Sequence record: NC_000866.4
DNA: 64,000 nt
Source of the DNA: Escherichia phage T4
Reading direction: 5' to 3' (one strand)
Below are positions 2,536-39,131 of this stretch, piece by piece. Each line of letters begins with the position of its first letter. Within the stretch, counting starts at the first letter, position 1. Below the pieces are notes generated by a model, which worked only from the letters and a program-made list of their open reading frames with translations, did not search any database and was not told the origin of the DNA. Position numbers and translations under genes: made by a program.

Positions 2536-4515
2536 ATGACTTTATTATCTCCGGGCATTGAGCTCAAAGAAACTACGGTTCAAAGCACCGTAGTTAATAA
2601 CTCTACTGGTACAGCAGCTTTGGCCGGTAAATTCCAGTGGGGTCCTGCTTTTCAGATTAAACAGGTTACAAATGAAGTAGATTTAGTTAATACTTTTGGT
2701 CAACCAACCGCTGAAACTGCTGACTATTTTATGTCTGCGATGAATTTCTTGCAGTACGGAAATGACTTACGAGTAGTTCGTGCTGTTGATAGAGATACCG
2801 CTAAAAACTCATCGCCAATTGCTGGTAATATTGATTACACAATTTCTACCCCAGGTAGTAACTATGCGGTTGGAGATAAAATCACGGTCAAATATGTTTC
2901 AGATGATATTGAAACTGAAGGTAAAATTACTGAAGTAGACGCAGATGGAAAAATTAAGAAAATTAATATTCCTACTGGCAAAAATTACGCTAAAGCGAAA
3001 GAAGTCGGTGAATATCCAACACTAGGTTCTAACTGGACTGCGGAAATTTCTTCATCTTCCTCTGGTTTAGCTGCAGTAATAACTCTTGGAAAAATTATTA
3101 CTGATTCTGGTATTTTATTAGCTGAAATTGAAAATGCTGAAGCTGCTATGACAGCGGTTGACTTTCAAGCAAATCTTAAAAAATATGGAATTCCAGGAGT
3201 AGTAGCGCTTTATCCAGGCGAATTAGGCGATAAAATTGAAATTGAAATCGTATCTAAAGCTGACTATGCAAAAGGAGCTTCTGCATTACTCCCAATTTAT
3301 CCAGGTGGTGGTACTCGTGCATCTACTGCTAAAGCAGTGTTTGGATATGGACCGCAAACTGATTCACAGTACGCTATTATAGTTCGTCGTAATGATGCTA
3401 TTGTTCAAAGCGTTGTTCTTTCAACTAAGCGTGGTGAAAAAGATATTTACGATAGTAACATCTATATCGATGACTTTTTCGCAAAAGGTGGTTCAGAATA
3501 TATTTTTGCAACTGCACAAAACTGGCCAGAAGGCTTCTCTGGAATTTTAACTCTGTCTGGTGGATTATCATCAAATGCTGAAGTAACAGCAGGAGATTTG
3601 ATGGAAGCTTGGGACTTCTTTGCTGACCGTGAATCTGTTGACGTTCAACTGTTTATTGCAGGTTCTTGTGCCGGTGAATCTTTAGAAACAGCATCTACTG
3701 TCCAAAAACACGTCGTTTCAATTGGGGATGCTCGCCAAGATTGCTTAGTATTGTGCTCTCCTCCGCGTGAAACTGTAGTTGGAATTCCTGTAACCCGTGC
3801 TGTTGATAACCTAGTCAATTGGAGAACTGCGGCAGGTTCATACACTGATAATAACTTTAATATCAGTTCAACCTATGCAGCAATTGATGGTAACCATAAG
3901 TATCAGTATGACAAATATAATGATGTGAATCGTTGGGTTCCATTAGCAGCTGATATTGCTGGTTTATGCGCAAGAACTGATAACGTATCTCAGACTTGGA
4001 TGTCTCCAGCTGGTTATAATCGTGGTCAGATTCTTAACGTTATTAAACTTGCTATTGAAACTCGCCAGGCTCAGCGCGACCGTTTATACCAAGAAGCTAT
4101 CAACCCGGTAACCGGTACAGGTGGTGATGGTTACGTATTGTATGGTGATAAAACAGCTACTTCTGTTCCTTCTCCATTTGATCGTATTAACGTTCGTCGT
4201 CTGTTTAATATGTTGAAAACGAATATCGGACGTAGTTCAAAATATCGTTTGTTCGAATTAAACAACGCGTTTACTCGTTCATCATTCCGCACAGAAACTG
4301 CCCAGTACTTACAAGGGAATAAAGCTCTCGGTGGAATTTATGAATATCGTGTAGTTTGCGATACAACAAATAACACTCCGTCAGTAATTGATAGAAATGA
4401 GTTTGTTGCAACATTCTACATCCAACCGGCTAGAAGCATTAACTACATTACCTTAAACTTCGTAGCAACTGCTACTGGTGCAGATTTCGATGAGTTAACT
4501 GGTCTTGCTGGTTAA
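2536..4515 (+). CDS. 18: Tail sheath protein
   Basis: 659-aa ORF, T4 gp18 length; preceded by TATAAATA late promoter. Confidence 0.95.
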   Translation: MTLLSPGIELKETTVQSTVVNNSTGTAALAGKFQWGPAFQIKQVTNEVDLVNTFGQPTAETADYFMSAMNFLQYGNDLRVVRAVDRDTAKNSSPIAGNIDYTISTPGSNYAVGDKITVKYVSDDIETEGKITEVDADGKIKKINIPTGKNYAKAKEVGEYPTLGSNWTAEISSSSSGLAAVITLGKIITDSGILLAEIENAEAAMTAVDFQANLKKYGIPGVVALYPGELGDKIEIEIVSKADYAKGASALLPIYPGGGTRASTAKAVFGYGPQTDSQYAIIVRRNDAIVQSVVLSTKRGEKDIYDSNIYIDDFFAKGGSEYIFATAQNWPEGFSGILTLSGGLSSNAEVTAGDLMEAWDFFADRESVDVQLFIAGSCAGESLETASTVQKHVVSIGDARQDCLVLCSPPRETVVGIPVTRAVDNLVNWRTAAGSYTDNNFNISSTYAAIDGNHKYQYDKYNDVNRWVPLAADIAGLCARTDNVSQTWMSPAGYNRGQILNVIKLAIETRQAQRDRLYQEAINPVTGTGGDGYVLYGDKTATSVPSPFDRINVRRLFNMLKTNIGRSSKYRLFELNNAFTRSSFRTETAQYLQGNKALGGIYEYRVVCDTTNNTPSVIDRNEFVATFYIQPARSINYITLNFVATATGADFDELTGLAG

Positions 4516-29559: not shown

Positions 29560-29748
29560 TTAATAATCTATTGGTAAGAGAGTACGATATATTTCAAACT
29601 TTGGACCTTTTTCATAAGCATCAAATGTTTCTGTGAATTTATTATAAGCATATGCATCTATAAATTCAATCATGATTTGTGATACAGAAGTAGAAACATC
29701 TCCACCTTCTTTTTGAGCCACGACAATTGTTTCTAAGTAAGCTTTCAT
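29560..29748 (-). CDS. Hypothetical protein (62 aa) between DNA ligase and alt
   Basis: ATG overlaps the ligase stop; no recognisable motif. Confidence 0.6.
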   Translation of the reverse strand: MKAYLETIVVAQKEGGDVSTSVSQIMIEFIDAYAYNKFTETFDAYEKGPKFEIYRTLLPIDY

Positions 29749-31208
29749 AGACCAGTTACCTCATGAAAATCACCAAATACATCTTCGAATGTATTAGCTT
29801 TAGTTTTATCTTCACGTAAACGAATCGCAATCGGAAGAAATAATTTAACGTAATCAGTGCGGCCATCAGATTTTAACCAACCGTTGCATTCGCACTCTAG
29901 AATTTTTCCAATATAATAATTTTGGTTTTCCATAATGCGAGTACGGTCAAGTTCATGCGATTTTACACCGGCTTTATCTTTTAAGCCTGAACCAGCATTT
30001 ACCTTAATTTTTCCACACTCTGACTCAAGAATAAATCCACCCGCTTTAGTAGGGTCTTTACGGTGAGGATAAATTCCTACAATTTTTAAATCAACATCAA
30101 TTACTTCTTTAAATTTATAAAGATTTTTTGAACGAGCATTTTCCCATAATCCATCGATATTTTTGAGAATAATACCTTCAAGACCTTGGTCAATATACTT
30201 TTTATAAATTACCTTAGCTTCATCTAGGTTATTTACTACCTGGTTTTCAATTAAAATTACTTTATCATATCCAGATGTCATTTGTTCTAGTTTAGAAAAA
30301 CGTACATCATATTTCAAACGAAATGCAGGAAGACTGTATATTTCTACCAACGGGACATAATCCCAGACCTGAAACTTCATGCATTGTGCTTCTTTTTCAG
30401 AAATGGTTCCCTTTAAAGATTTATTGGCGATTCCATTAGAAGCAGTACGTGATTCAGCTACTTCGGCGAATTCTTTAGCTTTACTGTTTTCAGGATAAGC
30501 ATCAAAAAGAAAATCTAGGCCTTCTGGCTCCTTTTTAACTTGCTCATGGTATACCAATTCGCCATCAATCAACACACCTTCTGGATGAATCTGGCGGGCT
30601 TCAGCGGTCATTTTAATTAACTCTTCCTTAAGAAGATCTAATCCTAGATATTCATTACCAGCTCGTGATAAAAGACGAACATCATCTAATTCATCACCTC
30701 TAACTTCAGCAAAACACCGAGCTCCATCAGCTTTTAACTGAGCAAAGGCTGGAAATTTGATATTCTTATTAATGCCTTTTTCATCATAAGAACTTGCGAG
30801 CATTTGAGGTTGTTCAGGAATTAAACCTGGCCAAACTTTGTTTGCAATAGATACTGAAGCACCACATTCAAGGTCTCGCATCATCACTCGACGCAAAACT
30901 TCAACATCATCTTTTTTACCATCGGTGATATATCCAGTTAATTCCTCAATTGCTGCATTTCCAGTCAATTTCCGAGTAGCTAATGTGAATTCAATGAAGT
31001 CAAGCATATCGGTAAGAGTCAACATTCCAAAACTCTGGGTAGCAATACCAGGTTTAGGCCATTTCTTGATATAATACTGTAACCCACGAGAATAAGTCAG
31101 ACGATATACTCGTTTAAGCAATTCATTATCTTTATTCTTTTCAAGAATTGCTTGCTTCTGTTTAGTTGAACCAATAGATGCTATTTCGTTCAGAATTTTA
31201 AGAATCAT
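29745..31208 (-). CDS. 30: ATP-dependent DNA ligase
   Basis: 487-aa ORF with adenylation motif I (LKADG); T4 DNA ligase length. Confidence 0.96.
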   Translation of the reverse strand: MILKILNEIASIGSTKQKQAILEKNKDNELLKRVYRLTYSRGLQYYIKKWPKPGIATQSFGMLTLTDMLDFIEFTLATRKLTGNAAIEELTGYITDGKKDDVEVLRRVMMRDLECGASVSIANKVWPGLIPEQPQMLASSYDEKGINKNIKFPAFAQLKADGARCFAEVRGDELDDVRLLSRAGNEYLGLDLLKEELIKMTAEARQIHPEGVLIDGELVYHEQVKKEPEGLDFLFDAYPENSKAKEFAEVAESRTASNGIANKSLKGTISEKEAQCMKFQVWDYVPLVEIYSLPAFRLKYDVRFSKLEQMTSGYDKVILIENQVVNNLDEAKVIYKKYIDQGLEGIILKNIDGLWENARSKNLYKFKEVIDVDLKIVGIYPHRKDPTKAGGFILESECGKIKVNAGSGLKDKAGVKSHELDRTRIMENQNYYIGKILECECNGWLKSDGRTDYVKLFLPIAIRLREDKTKANTFEDVFGDFHEVTGL

Positions 31209-31474
31209 TGTTCATCCTTTAGAGTTTGGTTTACAGCTCTATTATAAATCAATTCATCATTAAGCTCAGTCAAAGACCTGTGGTACGTGGTTCTAACTTT
31301 ATTTCCTTGCATCCAGTGCTTGATATAAATGAAACCTTGCTCTACACATTTTTTAAAAATTCGTTCGTCTTTTTGAGCTCGGAATTCTGGATTGCATCTA
31401 AAAAATTGATTTACGTGACCGTAATCACGTGTAGTATTACCTTCATTTTCATAAATAGTGTGAACAACAAACAT
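31205..31474 (-). CDS. Hypothetical protein (T4 30.x cluster)
   Basis: 89-aa ORF with ATG start overlapping neighbour. Confidence 0.65.
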   Translation of the reverse strand: MFVVHTIYENEGNTTRDYGHVNQFFRCNPEFRAQKDERIFKKCVEQGFIYIKHWMQGNKVRTTYHRSLTELNDELIYNRAVNQTLKDEQ

Positions 31475-32310
31475 TAGAATGCTCCTTGGAAAATATTATC
31501 ACCACAAGTAGGTCTATTATACAAATACTCTATACCGCCGGGCTTAATATAGTTCCATGTCTGAAACGGATGCGTCTGATATGGATGATATGGATTATAA
31601 GGATTAAATCCAGGAGTTCTCCAGGTAGTGTTCCAAGGAAAAGAATCGTTTTTAATCATCTTTTCAATTACATCTTTTATAGCTTTTTCACTATCAAAAC
31701 TTTCTTTATTTTCCTTTGGTGAAAAAAGCTTATTCTCTACATCGTTCCATGTATAAACTCGCTGAGCAGTTTTTGGAATATTGTCACGCTCTCCTCGAGC
31801 CATCCAATACACAGGAACACGTAATATTTCACTCGCGTGATCGCAGTGGTGAGCGAGATCGTCAATATAACAAATTACGTTATATTTCTCTTTTGCTTTT
31901 TTGAACAACTCTTCTTTTGAAGAATCATGACTACACATCAGTACTTCTGAGAAAGCACCAGGAAAAAGAGCATTCAAATTAAATTGACGATTTAATAGAG
32001 CGTCAATAGAATCACCCAATGCTGTAACAGCAACAAAATTATAATCTTCTTTTAATTTGTTAATTACACACAGAGCATCTTTATATGGAGACAAGTAACG
32101 AATAAAATCCGAACGATTGTATTTTTCAATTAACTTGACGCCAAGTTCTTCATCACAGTTAAAGAGTTTACCAGGAGAAATAAATTTCTCATCTTGGATC
32201 ATTTTTAAAATATGTTCTAACGGAAGATTATATTTCTGAGCAAAATAAGGAAGGCCTGATTGCCAGCTTAAACATACTCCATCAATATCAGTTAAAATAG
32301 TAGGCTTCAT
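31474..32310 (-). CDS. HAD-superfamily phosphatase / nucleotidase-like protein (T4 30.x cluster)
   Basis: 278 aa; N-terminal ILTDIDGV matches the HAD motif I (DxDGx); later acidic YIDD resembles the metal-binding motif. Confidence 0.75.
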   Translation of the reverse strand: MKPTILTDIDGVCLSWQSGLPYFAQKYNLPLEHILKMIQDEKFISPGKLFNCDEELGVKLIEKYNRSDFIRYLSPYKDALCVINKLKEDYNFVAVTALGDSIDALLNRQFNLNALFPGAFSEVLMCSHDSSKEELFKKAKEKYNVICYIDDLAHHCDHASEILRVPVYWMARGERDNIPKTAQRVYTWNDVENKLFSPKENKESFDSEKAIKDVIEKMIKNDSFPWNTTWRTPGFNPYNPYHPYQTHPFQTWNYIKPGGIEYLYNRPTCGDNIFQGAF

Positions 32311-32771
32311 AGAGAGTCTCTTAATAGGTTTAACACATCAATAAATTCAGCTTCGGTTAGTATTGTATCATCTTTTGTTAGACCACTAGCAATGCTGTGC
32401 TTCAAAACTTTTCCTTTCGAGGCTTGTAATGCATCACGAAAGCCCTTGTTTTGAATCGCTGCTTCAAAATATGCATTTGTGTATAATTCTTTCCACGCCG
32501 GGGAGTATCTTGAAAACGGAACTCCAAGCCAAAAGAGGGTCCCACGGTCCTGAGCTCTAGCATAAGACCTTCCAGCTTGTTGGGCGGCAAGCCCGGATAA
32601 CCCAAATATACGACGTTGTTGTTCAACATTTTTCACCTTACACCCTTGGAGGAATCCTTCAAGACCTCCAAATTGAATACCATCCATAACGAAAGGCCAT
32701 TGGGCGAAATTACTTAATGCACATGATGGCCACCTAAAATTGCTTCTAATCTCTAACTCAGACATTTTCAA
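32307..32771 (-). CDS. NADAR (YbiA/DUF1768)-like protein (T4 30.x cluster)
   Basis: 154 aa; LSNFAQWPFVMDGIQF...EGFLQGCK resembles the YbiA-family core FSNFAAWPIKVDGKTW...EHYFQAQK. Confidence 0.7.
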   Translation of the reverse strand: MKMSELEIRSNFRWPSCALSNFAQWPFVMDGIQFGGLEGFLQGCKVKNVEQQRRIFGLSGLAAQQAGRSYARAQDRGTLFWLGVPFSRYSPAWKELYTNAYFEAAIQNKGFRDALQASKGKVLKHSIASGLTKDDTILTEAEFIDVLNLLRDSL

Positions 32772-32964
32772 TGCTTATAATTTCAACATCAGCCCAATGA
32801 CCATAGCAAGGAAGACGAAATTCAACTGGCCAGTTAGGGTCCCTTTCTAATATAATAGACTCAACTTGTGGTTCTTCGTGTTCATCAGTATACGGATTTT
32901 TATCTGTTACTTTATATGTGACCTTAATGTACTGAATTCCAAAAATCTTATTAATTATATTCAT
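32758..32964 (-). CDS. Hypothetical protein (T4 30.x cluster)
   Basis: 68-aa ORF, overlapping neighbours. Confidence 0.55.
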   Translation of the reverse strand: MNIINKIFGIQYIKVTYKVTDKNPYTDEHEEPQVESIILERDPNWPVEFRLPCYGHWADVEIISIENV

Positions 32965-33158
32965 ACTAATTCCTTTAATCCGTAGATAGGAGATAATTCA
33001 TCACCCATACGAAGGTCTTCATTTCCATCTACCCAGGAAACAATATAAGCCTCTTTTATTTGAATACCACTCCATTTAAATGGAGGTAGAACCTTAGAAA
33101 TTAATCCAGGTATACCAACTCCCTTTAATTCAACAGTTTGACCTAAAAAGAATTTCAT
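32961..33158 (-). CDS. Hypothetical protein (T4 30.x cluster)
   Basis: 65-aa ORF, overlapping neighbours. Confidence 0.55.
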   Translation of the reverse strand: MKFFLGQTVELKGVGIPGLISKVLPPFKWSGIQIKEAYIVSWVDGNEDLRMGDELSPIYGLKELV

Positions 33159-33445
33159 TAGAACCTCATCTGAAAACCGTGCGATTTAACATTACCGCCG
33201 CCAATATCAGAAATGTTAATTTCACGCGCAATTGAAGGGTCAATGTCAATTTCACGATTGAGTTTAGTGATAGCTAAAGTATCACGCCCATTTACAGTAC
33301 GGAACTCTAAAGGACAAACCACATCAACGTAGTTTTTAATCGATTCGCTAGTAAGTTGCAAATGTGCAGGAAGGTCTTTAGGTGCCTTTGAGAAAACCAC
33401 TTCACAGAAATTTTTGCGGGTATCAAAATAAGTAGTCATAAACAT
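33158..33445 (-). CDS. Hypothetical protein (T4 30.x cluster)
   Basis: 95-aa ORF; AGGAAAA RBS; hairpin upstream. Confidence 0.6.
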   Translation of the reverse strand: MFMTTYFDTRKNFCEVVFSKAPKDLPAHLQLTSESIKNYVDVVCPLEFRTVNGRDTLAITKLNREIDIDPSIAREINISDIGGGNVKSHGFQMRF

Positions 33446-33486
33446 AATATTTTCCTCAGTAAGGGGCTGAAGCCCCTCATTTTATT

Positions 33487-33852
33487 TTAAATATCAAATT
33501 CATTAAGAACTACATCAAAGATTGCTTCAAGATGCTCAGGTTTAGCTCTGTTACTCAGAATATGACGAATCCAAGTTTTAACTAAGAGTTTACGATTAGC
33601 ACCATTCCAGCAAGGATGAGTCCCTAAATCGCGTTGGCGGAAATCATCATCCAGAGCGATTTTGAAGTTGGAACCTTTCATCGTGATTGAAACCGTGATA
33701 CCGTTTTCAAATCGCATATAAACGTAGTTAGGAGTCATATACTGTTCAATTTCGCATACTGATCCATTTTGATGTTTCCAGAGGCAAATAGTATCAATAG
33801 AACCTGCAATACCATTAGAAACATATTTACGTTCAAAGTTAATGTAGTTCAT
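33487..33852 (-). CDS. Hypothetical protein (T4 30.x cluster)
   Basis: 121-aa ORF with ATG start. Confidence 0.6.
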   Translation of the reverse strand: MNYINFERKYVSNGIAGSIDTICLWKHQNGSVCEIEQYMTPNYVYMRFENGITVSITMKGSNFKIALDDDFRQRDLGTHPCWNGANRKLLVKTWIRHILSNRAKPEHLEAIFDVVLNEFDI

Positions 33853-33920
33853 TTTTATTCTCCGAGATGTTTAATTGCGGTACAGGTATATAATATCATA
33901 TCCTGTACCAAAGTAAACAA

Positions 33921-34253
33921 TTATTTTACTACTTTCCAATGCTGCATGTCAAGTTTACCAACTTTTTTCATCTTCTCAATTAAGCGTTCTGCACGTTGGC
34001 GAGCTGTAACATAATGCCATTCGCCTAATTCATTTTGTTCAATTTTTCCAACGATTACTGTATTCAATTCATAAATCCAACCAGTAAAGAAATTATGAAC
34101 TTGAATTGTAAAGGTGAAATCTGTTCCCATACCTTCTGTTGTTTCTACTTCAATAATATCACCTTCAACTGCCATTAAGAACCACATAGTTTCATCATAT
34201 TTACCATTGAAGCATTTAGTTTTAACTGCAGCGTTCAGATTAATCGTTTTCAT
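33921..34253 (-). CDS. Hypothetical protein (T4 30.x cluster)
   Basis: 110-aa ORF with AAGGAG RBS, just downstream of an early promoter. Confidence 0.65.
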   Translation of the reverse strand: MKTINLNAAVKTKCFNGKYDETMWFLMAVEGDIIEVETTEGMGTDFTFTIQVHNFFTGWIYELNTVIVGKIEQNELGEWHYVTARQRAERLIEKMKKVGKLDMQHWKVVK

Positions 34254-34281
34254 TTTATTCTCCTTTGTTTGTGTAAGATAA

Positions 34282-34311
34282 TACTATCACAAAGGAACTA
34301 TACTGTAAACA
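34282..34311 (-). promoter_or_regulatory. Early sigma70-like promoter in the 30.x cluster
   Basis: Minus strand GTTTACA - 17 nt - TAGTAT, upstream of the 110-aa ORF (AAGGAG RBS). Confidence 0.55.
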
Positions 34312-34329
34312 ACTTTGTGCAATCTTTGG

Positions 34330-34358
34330 AAAATAAAAAAGGACTCCCGAAGGAGTCC
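34330..34358 (-). terminator. Terminator at the end of the 30.x cluster
   Basis: Minus strand GGACUCC-UUCG-GGAGUCC then UUUUUUAUUUU. Confidence 0.75.
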
Positions 34359-34363
34359 TCAAC

Positions 34364-34540
34364 TTATGCTTTCTGCTTACCAAAACGAGAAGCATCATCT
34401 CGAAGAACCGCACGTGCTCGGCGCATGATCTTCTCAACAGTTTGATTGATACGAGAGTTCGACCCACGCTTGTAGCCAGCGCGTTTAGAATCACCAACTT
34501 TCTTTTCAACTGCTTTCTTTGCTTTAGCTTGTTTTGCCAT
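34364..34540 (-). CDS. Small basic protein (58 aa, T4 30.x cluster)
   Basis: Taken from the first ATG (MAKQAKAKK...); Lys/Arg-rich; hairpin terminator immediately downstream. Confidence 0.5.
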   Translation of the reverse strand: MAKQAKAKKAVEKKVGDSKRAGYKRGSNSRINQTVEKIMRRARAVLRDDASRFGKQKA

Positions 34541-34784
34541 TATAAATTCTCTTTTAAATGAAAATGCAGGACTTATTGGCATTGCCTGCGCAAGCCCTCA
34601 AGGGGAACATAGGTTTTTGGATATTTAACGACCAGGATAACCATAAACCCGTCATCATTCACATTCAAGAGGTACACCGTAAAACTGTCGGGGTCTTAAA
34701 ACTATAATGATTCGCAAATCATTAATCAGACAGTTCGACGGCTCCTCGATTTAGCTCACACTAAGGCAGTGAATCTCCAATAAA

Positions 34785-37812: not shown

Positions 37813-39131
<1,319 letters not shown>

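What the first reader, a model, noticed from the sequence alone, without database searches (positions are those of the whole stretch)
31205..34540. Dense run of nine small ORFs of unknown function between ligase and rIII
About 3.3 kb packed with overlapping, translationally coupled ORFs of 58-278 aa, with an internal early promoter and a strong terminator at the end. Only two show recognisable domains. This is the stretch most likely to hold unassigned host-takeover or counter-defence functions.
Basis: inference. Interest (0 to 1): 0.4.

Follow-up and report, generated by a model that had tools for sequence, protein, structure and literature searches.

The report
Phage T4 early accessory genes 30.1–30.9
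This stretch is the long-annotated block of nine small, dispensable early genes (30.1 to 30.9) upstream of the DNA ligase gene of bacteriophage T4; two of them already have published roles in the phage-versus-bacterial-immunity arms race, so the finding is real but not new.

Summary
Window 31205-34540 is 100% identical to phage T4 (T4T 127222-130557) and holds genes 30.1-30.9, all on the minus strand. The nine ORFs are real. Each has homologues in T4-like phages, and substitutions fall mostly at third codon positions. Published omics shows all are transcribed early.

This is not one system. Gene 30.9 ends at a strong, conserved intrinsic terminator. Genes 30.8 and 30.7 each follow an early-type promoter. 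Genes 30.6 to 30.1 overlap by 1-8 nt and run straight into ligase gene 30.

Functions by gene:
- gp30.3 is AdfN, a NADAR DNA ADP-ribosylglycohydrolase shown experimentally to defeat DarTG1 (PMC11825919).
- gp30.5 binds host polyphosphate kinase and triggers the bNACHT11 defence (bioRxiv 2024.12.17.629029).
- gp30.2 is, by my analysis, an intact capped HAD phosphatase closest to 5'(3')-deoxyribonucleotidases. Its substrate is untested.
- gp30.7 gives a confident model with no known fold neighbour.
- gp30.1, 30.4, 30.6, 30.8 and 30.9 remain unassigned.

CRISPRi knock-downs show no strong fitness cost for any of the nine.

Verdict: observation confirmed, interpretation partly supported, already known, low-to-moderate interest. 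In passing, relatives (not T4) carry a covariation-supported structured RNA upstream of 30.9 that matches no Rfam family.

The parts
31205..31474 (-). Gene 30.1 (89 aa, Pfam DUF3045); overlaps the ligase start by 4 nt. Function unknown.
   Evidence: Homologues in 25 of 62 loci. The family profile finds nothing in PDB sequences. CRISPRi-ART classes it 'Semi-Fit' (1.15, p 0.084).
31474..32310 (-). Gene 30.2 (278 aa): capped HAD-superfamily phosphatase, 5'(3')-deoxyribonucleotidase-like core (residues 1-200), plus a low-confidence C-terminal tail ending in a conserved short motif.
   Evidence: HAD motifs D8xD10, T96, K132 and D150-D151 are invariant or nearly so in 36 sequences. The profile's best PDB hit is cdN 2jao, E 0.016. 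Family members weakly match Pfam NT5C, Hydrolase and HAD_2. The AF2 core has pLDDT above 90. Foldseek finds HAD C1-cap enzymes at E about 1e-7, with the best TM-scores for deoxyribonucleotidases 3bwv, 4yih and 2i7d.
32307..32765 (-). Gene 30.3 = adfN (152 aa from the ATG; a TTG at 32771 would give 154 aa): NADAR-family DNA ADP-ribosylglycohydrolase, counter-defence against DarTG1.
   Evidence: 100% identical to T4 gp30.3. Pfam PF08010. Experiments are in PMC11825919 and PMC11125620. E36 and K43 are present. Six of 12 family members weakly match Pfam NADAR, and the profile touches YbiA 2b3w.
32402..32629 (-). Annotated alternative-frame ORF 30.3' inside 30.3 (75 aa, DUF2883); probably not an independently selected gene.
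   Evidence: Differences fall at its own codon position 2 (0.37, against 0.07 and 0.19 at positions 1 and 3), with 7 synonymous and 33 non-synonymous changes. The start ATG is lost in RB69-like loci and one locus has an in-frame stop.
32758..32964 (-). Gene 30.4 (68 aa); function unknown; the narrowest distribution of the nine.
   Evidence: Homologues in 14 of 62 loci. Early RNA and early protein.
32961..33158 (-). Gene 30.5 (65 aa): small protein that binds host polyphosphate kinase and activates the bNACHT11 defence.
   Evidence: bioRxiv 10.1101/2024.12.17.629029 uses T4 NP_049819.1. Homologues in 32 of 62 loci.
33158..33445 (-). Gene 30.6 (95 aa); function unknown; first gene of the overlapping run 30.6 to 30.
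   Evidence: The profile finds nothing in PDB sequences. CRISPRi-ART classes it 'Semi-Fit' (0.72, p 0.067).
33462..33477 (-). GC-rich hairpin (GGGGC-UUCA-GCCCC core) between 30.7 and 30.6 with no U tract after it on the sense strand. Likely an RNA-stabilising or processing structure, not a clear terminator.
   Evidence: dG -13.2 kcal/mol, z -3.49. Sequence.
33487..33852 (-). Gene 30.7 (121 aa, PF06919): seven-stranded sheet plus C-terminal helices, invariant RDLGTHPxW-type loop, no assignable fold or function.
33890..33917 (-). Early-type promoter match upstream of 30.7 (GTTTACT ... TATTAT).
   Evidence: 30.7 is classed as early RNA.
33921..34253 (-). Gene 30.8 (110 aa, PF06019); function unknown.
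   Evidence: Homologues in 32 of 62 loci. The profile finds nothing in PDB sequences.
34281..34309 (-). Early-type promoter match upstream of 30.8 (GTTTACA, 17 nt, TAGTAT).
   Evidence: GTTTAC recurs at the same place in many relatives.
34330..34360 (-). Intrinsic terminator directly after the 30.9 stop codon (9-bp stem, UUCG loop, U6).
   Evidence: A hairpin plus T-run is kept after 30.9 in nearly all 38 distinct relatives, with compensatory stem changes.
34364..34540 (-). Gene 30.9 (58 aa; T4T annotates a 72-aa form from 34582): very basic small protein with an invariant R-x-x-Y-K-R-x-x-N-x-R core followed by a helix. Function unknown.
   Evidence: An exhaustive profile search finds only 26 representatives, all small stand-alone proteins apart from one spurious repeat protein. 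RNA is early; the protein was not classified.
29745..31208 (-). Flank: gene 30, ATP-dependent DNA ligase, the last cistron of the overlapping run.
   Evidence: Its start overlaps the 30.1 stop by 4 nt.

Best explanation
The region is the bacteriophage T4 gene block 30.1-30.9. It is a set of independent, early-expressed, individually dispensable accessory genes packed upstream of the DNA ligase gene, not a single multi-part system.

Transcription runs right to left. Gene 30.9 closes an upstream unit at a strong terminator. New early transcripts start before 30.8 and before 30.7. Genes 30.6, 30.5, 30.4, 30.3, 30.2 and 30.1 are translated from a read-through message in which each stop overlaps the next start, and this run ends in ligase. 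RegB cleavage at GGAG in the ribosome-binding sites helps shut the early messages off.

The products act separately. gp30.3 (AdfN) removes ADP-ribose that the DarT1 toxin puts on phage DNA guanines. gp30.5 binds host polyphosphate kinase and is itself the molecule sensed by the bNACHT11 immune protein. gp30.2 is predicted to be a Mg-dependent HAD phosphatase acting on a small phospho-substrate, most likely a deoxynucleoside monophosphate. The remaining six are small proteins that most likely bind host or phage macromolecules; gp30.9, being very basic, probably binds nucleic acid.

Shown: identity with T4, gene layout, coding status, early expression, dispensability, and the AdfN and gp30.5 activities (the last two from the literature). 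Inferred: the gp30.2 chemistry, promoter and terminator use, and everything about the function of 30.1, 30.4, 30.6, 30.7, 30.8 and 30.9.
For: - Identity: 100% nucleotide identity to T4T, with matching annotation.
- Coding status: homologues for every ORF and third-position-biased substitution.
- Layout: gaps and overlaps, Shine-Dalgarno sites and promoter motifs. The terminator has dG -16.4 and z -3.95 and is conserved in relatives.
- Expression: 30.4-30.8 give early RNA and early protein. 30.1, 30.2 and 30 give early RNA and middle protein. 30.9 gives early RNA (PMC9697503 supplements).
- RegB: a cleavage site in the 30.7 Shine-Dalgarno region is published (PMC9409239).
- Dispensability: CRISPRi-ART classes none of the nine as 'Fit'; eight (counting 30.3') are 'Not Fit' and two are 'Semi-Fit' (PMC11879866 supplement 15).
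- AdfN: necessary and sufficient against DarTG1, with enzymatic removal of ADP-ribose and E36A/K43A mutants (in vitro). AdfN alone rescues RB69, so it needs no neighbour.
- gp30.5: activates bNACHT11 and co-purifies with Ppk.
- gp30.2: complete HAD motif set, NT5C-like profile and fold matches, and a helical cap between motifs I and II.
- Patchy, independent distribution of the genes among relatives: 14 to 62 of 62 loci.
Against: - Tight overlap of 30.6 through 30 would also fit a functionally linked operon.
- 30.2 lies directly upstream of ligase in all 62 T4-like loci examined, which could mean more than inherited synteny.
- No biochemical data exist for gp30.2.
- No function of any kind is known for six of the proteins, so 'independent host-interaction factors' is an extrapolation from two characterised members.
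- Promoter and terminator calls are consensus matches. The promoter count in the region (22) is no higher than in shuffled sequence (20.0 +/- 4.1).
Confidence: 0.88

Rival explanations
1. The overlapping genes 30.3-30.2-30.1-30 form one functional DNA-damage-reversal module. NADAR removes ADP-ribose from DNA, the HAD phosphatase processes the released product or a damaged DNA end, and ligase seals the DNA.
For: Stop/start overlaps of 1-4 nt link 30.3, 30.2, 30.1 and 30. 30.2 is immediately upstream of ligase in 62 of 62 T4-like loci, and a 30.3 homologue is nearby in 29 of them, including distant lineages. PHROGs gives a weak polynucleotide-kinase family hit for gp30.2 (E 0.0033).
Against: AdfN alone, expressed from a plasmid, restores RB69 growth on DarTG1 cells, and NADAR hydrolysis leaves intact DNA with nothing to ligate. 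33 of 62 loci have 30.2 and ligase with no detectable 30.3 within 6 kb. In more distant phages (PA5oct, Vibrio 6E35-1b) the 30.2 homologue is not next to a ligase. gp30.2 has a closed helical cap typical of small-molecule HAD enzymes. It aligns with the T4 Pnk 3'-phosphatase domain only over motif I (hhalign probability 13%).
Confidence: 0.08
2. gp30.2 is a counter-defence enzyme in its own right. It would be a phosphatase that destroys a nucleotide-derived immune signal or rebalances nucleotide pools attacked by host defences, not a housekeeping nucleotidase.
For: It is an early, dispensable gene sitting next to a proven counter-defence gene. The active site is intact and conserved in more than 1400 phage records. 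The fold class acts on nucleotides.
Against: There is no experimental link to any defence system and no match in PADLOC (PADLOC holds defence proteins, not anti-defence proteins). It is nearly universal in T4-like phages, unlike the patchy distribution typical of anti-defence genes. This fits a conserved metabolic role better.
Confidence: 0.15
3. Some of the small ORFs are not genes but chance open frames in an AT-rich genome.
For: Several are under 70 codons. gp30.9 protein was not classified in the proteome data. The annotated 30.3' behaves like a non-selected frame.
Against: All nine have protein-level homologues with conserved motifs. All show p3 above p1 and p2 and have ribosome-binding sites. 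30.1, 30.2 and 30.4-30.8 were classified at the protein level. Only 30.3' fails these tests.
Confidence: 0.03

Closest known systems
AdfN / phage gp30.3-type NADAR (anti-DarT factor NADAR), relative of the DarG1 antitoxin
   Same: The window's gp30.3 is the very protein characterised (100% identity). It has a NADAR fold, catalytic E36 and K43, and a His in place of the usual acidic residue in the last strand. It removes ADP-ribose from guanine in DNA and neutralises DarTG1.
   Different: Nothing differs; it is the type member. Compared with DarG1, it lacks the N-terminal extension and works best in T-even infections.
5'(3')-deoxyribonucleotidases of the HAD superfamily (Pfam NT5C; human/mouse cdN and mdN; S. 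epidermidis 3bwv)
   Same: gp30.2 shares the DxDGV nucleophile motif, the Thr, Lys and DD motifs, the Rossmann-like core and a four-helix C1 cap. These enzymes are the best profile hit and give the best TM-scores.
   Different: Sequence identity is only 14-18%, and the T4 protein itself scores below Pfam thresholds. gp30.2 carries an extra tail of about 80 residues, predicted disordered, with a conserved terminal motif. Substrate specificity is untested. Other C1-cap HAD enzymes score equally well by E-value.
Small phage proteins that bind host kinases and trigger bNACHT11 (T2 gp6, gp9, gp57)
   Same: T4 gp30.5 is one of the published activators. It is small, beta-rich, binds a host kinase (Ppk), and its deletion helps T4 escape bNACHT11.
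   Different: It is unrelated in sequence to the other activators. What binding Ppk achieves for the phage is not known.
Other T4 clusters of small, non-essential early genes of unknown function (general knowledge of the T4 genome; not tested here)
   Same: Early promoters, tight packing, RegB-sensitive ribosome-binding sites, dispensability in laboratory hosts, and patchy conservation among T4-like phages.
   Different: This block is co-transcribed with an important replication gene (ligase) and contains one nearly universal member (30.2).

Membership tests
Bacteriophage T4 genes 30.1-30.9 | Nucleotide identity and the same gene order between gene 30 (ligase) and rIII | tested here: met
   100% identity over 3336 nt to T4T HM137666.1 127222-130557. 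The annotation lists 30.1-30.9 between 30 and rIII.
NADAR superfamily (gp30.3 / AdfN) | Sequence match to the NADAR family model | tested here: inconclusive
   The T4 protein hits only the phage-specific PF08010. Six of 12 family members hit PF08719 NADAR, best E 0.0039, below Pfam's curated threshold. The family profile hits YbiA 2b3w at E 0.16.
NADAR superfamily (gp30.3 / AdfN) | Catalytic residues that contact ADP-ribose (E36 and K43 in T4 numbering) | tested here: met
   Both are present in the window's protein. E36 is invariant in 12 diverse homologues; position 43 is not among the invariant or near-invariant columns. The residues are defined in PMC11825919.
NADAR superfamily (gp30.3 / AdfN) | DNA ADP-ribosylglycohydrolase activity and neutralisation of DarT1 | not testable with these tools
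   Shown experimentally for this exact protein in PMC11825919 and PMC11125620.
HAD-superfamily phosphatase (gp30.2) | Four catalytic motifs: DxD nucleophile/acid, Thr/Ser, Lys, and acidic DD | tested here: met
   D8, D10 and K132 are invariant. T96, D150 and D151 are conserved in at least 90% of 36 sequences.
HAD-superfamily phosphatase (gp30.2) | Rossmann-like HAD core fold with a cap domain | tested here: met
   The AF2 core has pLDDT above 90. 105 PDB matches have E <= 0.001, and all 50 listed are HAD-fold enzymes. Helices between motif I and motif II form a C1-type cap.
5'(3')-deoxyribonucleotidase family (NT5C) (gp30.2) | Family-level sequence match above the curated threshold | tested here: not met
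   The T4 protein has no Pfam hit at E <= 0.1. Six of 36 homologues hit PF06941, best E 1.2e-4. The profile hits cdN 2jao at E 0.016. It works like this family but is not shown to be a member.
5'(3')-deoxyribonucleotidase family (NT5C) (gp30.2) | Hydrolysis of deoxynucleoside monophosphates | not testable with these tools
   No biochemical report was found in four literature searches.
Polynucleotide kinase-type DNA 3'-phosphatase (gp30.2, considered) | Specific similarity to the capless Pnk phosphatase domain | tested here: not met
   hhalign against T4 Pnk (window 38002-38907) aligns 25 columns around motif I only, probability 13%. gp30.2 has a helical cap.
bNACHT11 activators / host-kinase binders (gp30.5) | Identity with the tested protein NP_049819.1 (T4 30.5) | tested here: met
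   The window is 100% identical to T4 across gene 30.5. Activity is reported in bioRxiv 10.1101/2024.12.17.629029.
Intrinsic (Rho-independent) terminator (34330-34360) | GC-rich stem-loop followed directly by a U tract, more stable than shuffled sequence | tested here: met
   9-bp stem, UUCG loop, U6 tail, dG -16.4, z -3.95. Conserved with compensatory changes. Termination in vivo was not tested.

The most novel reading that the evidence does not exclude
At least one of the six still-unassigned products (30.1, 30.4, 30.6, 30.7, 30.8, 30.9) may turn out to be a new kind of host-factor inhibitor or counter-defence protein. The best candidates are gp30.7, which has a confident model but no structural neighbour in the PDB, and the very basic, strongly conserved gp30.9. 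Alternatively, the gp30.2 phosphatase may act against a nucleotide-based immune pathway and not in ordinary nucleotide metabolism.
Probability: 0.3. Interest if true: 0.5.

Novelty: already known. Interest (0 to 1): 0.22.

Why it matters
The block illustrates how small early genes of a model phage are being decoded one by one as weapons in, or liabilities to, bacterial immunity. Two of the nine have been assigned in the last two years. The practical value of this analysis is a short, prioritised list of what is left. gp30.2 is an intact nucleotidase-like phosphatase, nearly universal in T4-like phages, with no known substrate. gp30.7 has a well-predicted but unclassifiable fold. gp30.9 is a narrowly distributed, very basic 58-residue protein. 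None of this changes current understanding.

Tried and rejected
- Single-sequence searches of gp30.2 and gp30.3 against PDB sequences gave only noise.
- NCBIfam and PADLOC gave nothing for any of the ten ORFs.
- Family profiles of 30.1, 30.6, 30.7, 30.8 and 30.9 against PDB sequences gave nothing significant.
- The exhaustive gp30.9 profile search found no larger proteins or domain fusions. The one long hit is a repeat protein with a chance RSGYKRK motif.
- I first read the 97% identity of gp30.9 in phages whose ligase is 55% identical as extreme functional constraint. I rejected that as the sole explanation because synonymous divergence there is also low (p3 0.22, against about 0.55 in neighbouring genes). 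This points to recent exchange of that segment.
- Ligase adjacency as evidence for a 30.2-ligase functional link was rejected. It is absent outside the T4-like family.
- A Pnk-type 3'-phosphatase identity for gp30.2 was rejected.
- Rfam found only a sub-threshold sRNA hit on the terminator hairpin (31 bits against a gathering score of 50), which I treat as chance.
- Literature searches for 30.1, 30.2, 30.4 and 30.6-30.9 by several spellings found no functional study.
- The Miller et al. T4 genome review could not be read.

Full report
**Identity and observation.** A megablast of window 31205-34540 against phage genomes gives 100% identity over all 3336 bases to Enterobacteria phage T4T, positions 127222-130557. 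About 470 other T4-like genomes cover at least 80% of the stretch. The T4T annotation names the genes 30.1 to 30.9, plus an alternative-frame ORF 30.3', between gene 30 (DNA ligase) and rIII. The stretch is therefore the classical T4 '30.x' block. The ORFs cover about 94% of the region.

**Are they genes?** I fetched 61 related loci through the gp30.2 family and searched each for all the T4 proteins.
- Every ORF has homologues. Out of 62 loci, 30.2 is found in 62, 30.9 in 42, 30.7 in 36, 30.5 and 30.8 in 32 each, 30.3 in 29, 30.1 in 25, 30.6 in 19 and 30.4 in 14.
- In codon-aligned comparisons with four diverged relatives, all nine genes change most at the third codon position.
- The exception is the annotated 30.3'. 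Its changes peak at its own second position, which is the third position of the overlapping 30.3 frame. It has 7 synonymous against 33 non-synonymous codon changes. Its ATG is replaced in RB69-like phages, and one relative has an in-frame stop. It shows no sign of independent selection.
- Published time-resolved omics classes 30.4-30.8 as early RNA and early protein. It classes 30.1, 30.2 and ligase as early RNA and middle protein. Gene 30.9 is early RNA with no protein class (PMC9697503 supplements).

**Anatomy.** The block is not one uniformly coupled unit.
- Directly after the 30.9 stop codon lies a 9-bp GC-rich hairpin with a UUCG loop and a U6 tail. Its dG is -16.4 kcal/mol, z -3.95 against shuffles.
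- A hairpin plus T-run at this position is kept in essentially all 38 distinct relatives, with compensatory stem changes. It is often followed by a GTTTAC box.
- About 30 nt downstream is an early-type promoter match (GTTTACA, 17 nt, TAGTAT; 34309-34281), then 30.8.
- A second match (GTTTACT ... TATTAT; 33917-33890) precedes 30.7.
- A stable hairpin without a U tract follows 30.7.
- From 30.6 onward, every stop overlaps the next start by 1-8 nt, through 30.5, 30.4, 30.3, 30.2 and 30.1 into ligase.
- The ribosome-binding sites of 30.7 and 30.8 contain GGAG, the RegB target. A RegB cut in the 30.7 leader is published (PMC9409239).
- Consensus promoter matches are no more frequent here than in shuffled sequence (22 against 20.0 +/- 4.1). 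The promoter assignments therefore rest on position, on the T4-specific GTTTAC box and on the early expression data. They are inferences.

**What the products do: published.**
- gp30.3 is AdfN. Phage crosses mapped DarTG1 resistance to gene 30.3. RB69 is sensitive because a frameshift truncates its copy. T4 AdfN expressed alone restores RB69 growth. The purified protein removes ADP-ribose from DNA, and E36A and K43A mutants are impaired (PMC11825919; in vitro also PMC11125620). The window's protein carries E36 and K43, and E36 is invariant in 12 diverse homologues. By sequence alone the NADAR link is weak: Pfam NADAR is hit in 6 of 12 members at best E 0.0039, and YbiA at E 0.16.
- gp30.5 was found by an AlphaFold-multimer screen to activate the NLR-related defence protein bNACHT11. 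Deleting it together with two other activators lets T4 escape that defence. The tagged protein co-purifies with host polyphosphate kinase (bioRxiv 10.1101/2024.12.17.629029).
- Genome-wide CRISPRi-ART knock-down classes 30.2, 30.3, 30.3', 30.4, 30.5, 30.7, 30.8 and 30.9 as 'Not Fit', and 30.1 and 30.6 as 'Semi-Fit' (PMC11879866 supplement 15). None is important in a standard host.

**What the products do: this analysis.**
- gp30.2. An alignment of 36 diverse homologues keeps all four HAD motifs: D8xD10, T96, K132 and D150-D151. Its profile's best PDB sequence hit is mouse cytosolic 5'(3')-deoxyribonucleotidase (E 0.016). Individual homologues weakly hit Pfam Hydrolase, NT5C and HAD_2.
- The AlphaFold model is confident for residues 1-200. 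It shows a helical cap inserted between motifs I and II. Residues about 225-278 are low-confidence.
- Foldseek finds only HAD enzymes with C1 caps, at E about 1e-7. The highest target-normalised TM-scores go to deoxyribonucleotidases: 3bwv 0.71, 4yih 0.68, 2i7d 0.64-0.67.
- Against the T4 Pnk 3'-phosphatase domain, only motif I aligns.
- I therefore read gp30.2 as an active small-molecule phosphatase that works like a deoxyribonucleotidase. Family membership is not established, because the T4 protein itself scores below family thresholds, and the substrate is unknown.
- Some database records already call homologues '5' nucleotidase', 'putative phosphatase' or 'HAD-like'.
- Gene 30.2 sits directly upstream of ligase in all 62 T4-like loci but not in PA5oct or a Vibrio jumbo phage. 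The adjacency looks inherited, not functional.
- gp30.9. It is a 58-residue, very basic protein with an invariant R-x-x-Y-K-R-x-x-N-x-R core. An exhaustive profile search of 1.84 billion representatives finds 26 relatives. All are small stand-alone proteins except one spurious repeat protein. Its 97% identity in phages whose ligase is 55% identical comes with unusually low synonymous divergence. Recent exchange of the segment, and not only constraint, explains it.
- Profiles of 30.1, 30.6 and 30.8 found nothing.

**Mechanism and rivals.** The best-supported picture is a string of independent early accessory genes. Some face bacterial immunity, and they ride on the ligase transcript. The rival of one integrated NADAR-HAD-ligase repair module is weakened by four findings:
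- AdfN is sufficient on its own.
- 33 of 62 loci have 30.2 and ligase with no detectable 30.3 nearby.
- The ligase adjacency is lost in distant phages.
- gp30.2 has the capped architecture of a small-molecule enzyme.

A counter-defence role for gp30.2 is possible but unsupported. Apart from 30.3', the idea that some ORFs are spurious is excluded.

**Novelty and score.** Everything central here is already annotated or published. The new elements are modest: a firmer fold assignment for gp30.2, negative results for the others, and doubts about 30.3'. A specialist would not be surprised. Interest is low to moderate.

**Seen in passing.**
- In 20 of 61 related loci, but not in T4, the spacer between rIII and 30.9 holds a roughly 140-nt element. 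It is 85-99% identical between phages whose flanking proteins are far more diverged.
- RNAalifold predicts 45 pairs in seven helices. Of these, 22 pairs show double compensatory changes. 96.6% of cells are paired, against 29-42% when partners are slid, and 0 of 500 shuffles reach the observed covariation.
- G-U pairs support the gene-sense strand.
- No Rfam family matches at E <= 0.1.
- A covariance model finds no copy in the window or in loci that lack it.
- An exact 20-mer occurs once per genome, and only in those same T4-like contigs.
- It looks like an undescribed structured RNA, possibly a leader of 30.9, with presence/absence polymorphism among close relatives.

Noticed in passing
L016:2906-3040, L010:3506-3640, L029:2797-2932, L034 about 2704-2857, L061 about 3082-3228 (rIII-30.9 spacer of relatives); absent from the window, where the corresponding site is about 34660-34670: A roughly 140-nt conserved element sits upstream of 30.9 in 20 of 61 T4-like loci. 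It has a strongly covariation-supported multi-helix structure: 45 pairs, 22 with double changes, 96.6% of cells paired against 29-42% for slid controls. It has no Rfam match and occurs once per genome. It is present or absent among close relatives, giving three alleles at the site: empty in T4, a 47-nt filler, or the element. It may be an undescribed structured RNA or a leader of 30.9.
   Followed up: partly
window 32402-32629 (-): The annotated alternative-frame gene 30.3' (Pfam DUF2883) shows no independent purifying selection. Changes peak at its codon position 2, with 7 synonymous and 33 non-synonymous differences. Its start codon is lost in RB69-like phages, and one relative has an in-frame stop. 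The Pfam family may describe a non-gene.
   Followed up: yes
window 34364-34540 (-) and L016/L017: Gene 30.9 is 97% identical in protein to copies in phages whose neighbouring genes are 50-67% identical. Its synonymous divergence is also low (p3 0.22 against about 0.55). This indicates recent horizontal exchange of this small segment. At least three allelic types of the C-terminal helix are distributed mosaically.
   Followed up: partly
window 34589-34604 (-): A 16-nt box, CCCTTGAGGGCTTGCG, lies about 50-65 nt upstream of the 30.9 start. Its GAGGGCTTG core is the most conserved part of the rIII-30.9 spacer across the 17 aligned loci. Its local fold is no more stable than shuffled sequence (z 0.01). 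Its function is unknown; it could be a promoter or an operator.
   Followed up: partly
window about 31504-31539 (-), gp30.2 residues about 258-269: After a Pro/Trp/Tyr-rich linker of variable length that is predicted to be disordered, many gp30.2 homologues end in a conserved short motif, G-I-E-Y-L-x-x-x-P-T. It looks like a docking peptide for an unknown partner. Shorter homologues lack the whole tail.
   Followed up: no
window 34540 versus 34582 (-): T4T annotates 30.9 as 72 aa starting at 34582, while the reference T4 annotation uses 58 aa starting at 34540. The homologues recovered here align from MAKQ (three with a two-residue MK extension), although my extraction script trimmed N-terminal extensions. 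The upstream spacer varies by indels that are not multiples of three. The evidence leans towards the 58-aa start.
   Followed up: partly
window 34325-34408 (-): There is a sub-threshold Rfam hit to the Rhizobiales sRNA Atu_C8 (31.4 bits against a gathering score of 50, E 0.0015). It covers the 3' end of 30.9 and the terminator hairpin and is most likely driven by the terminator alone.
   Followed up: no
L082 (Vibrio phage 6E35-1b) 419-4076: In this distant jumbo phage, the gp30.2-like HAD gene lies about 1.5 kb from a nicotinamide phosphoribosyltransferase gene and not near a ligase. This hints at a possible link to NAD or nucleotide salvage.
   Followed up: no
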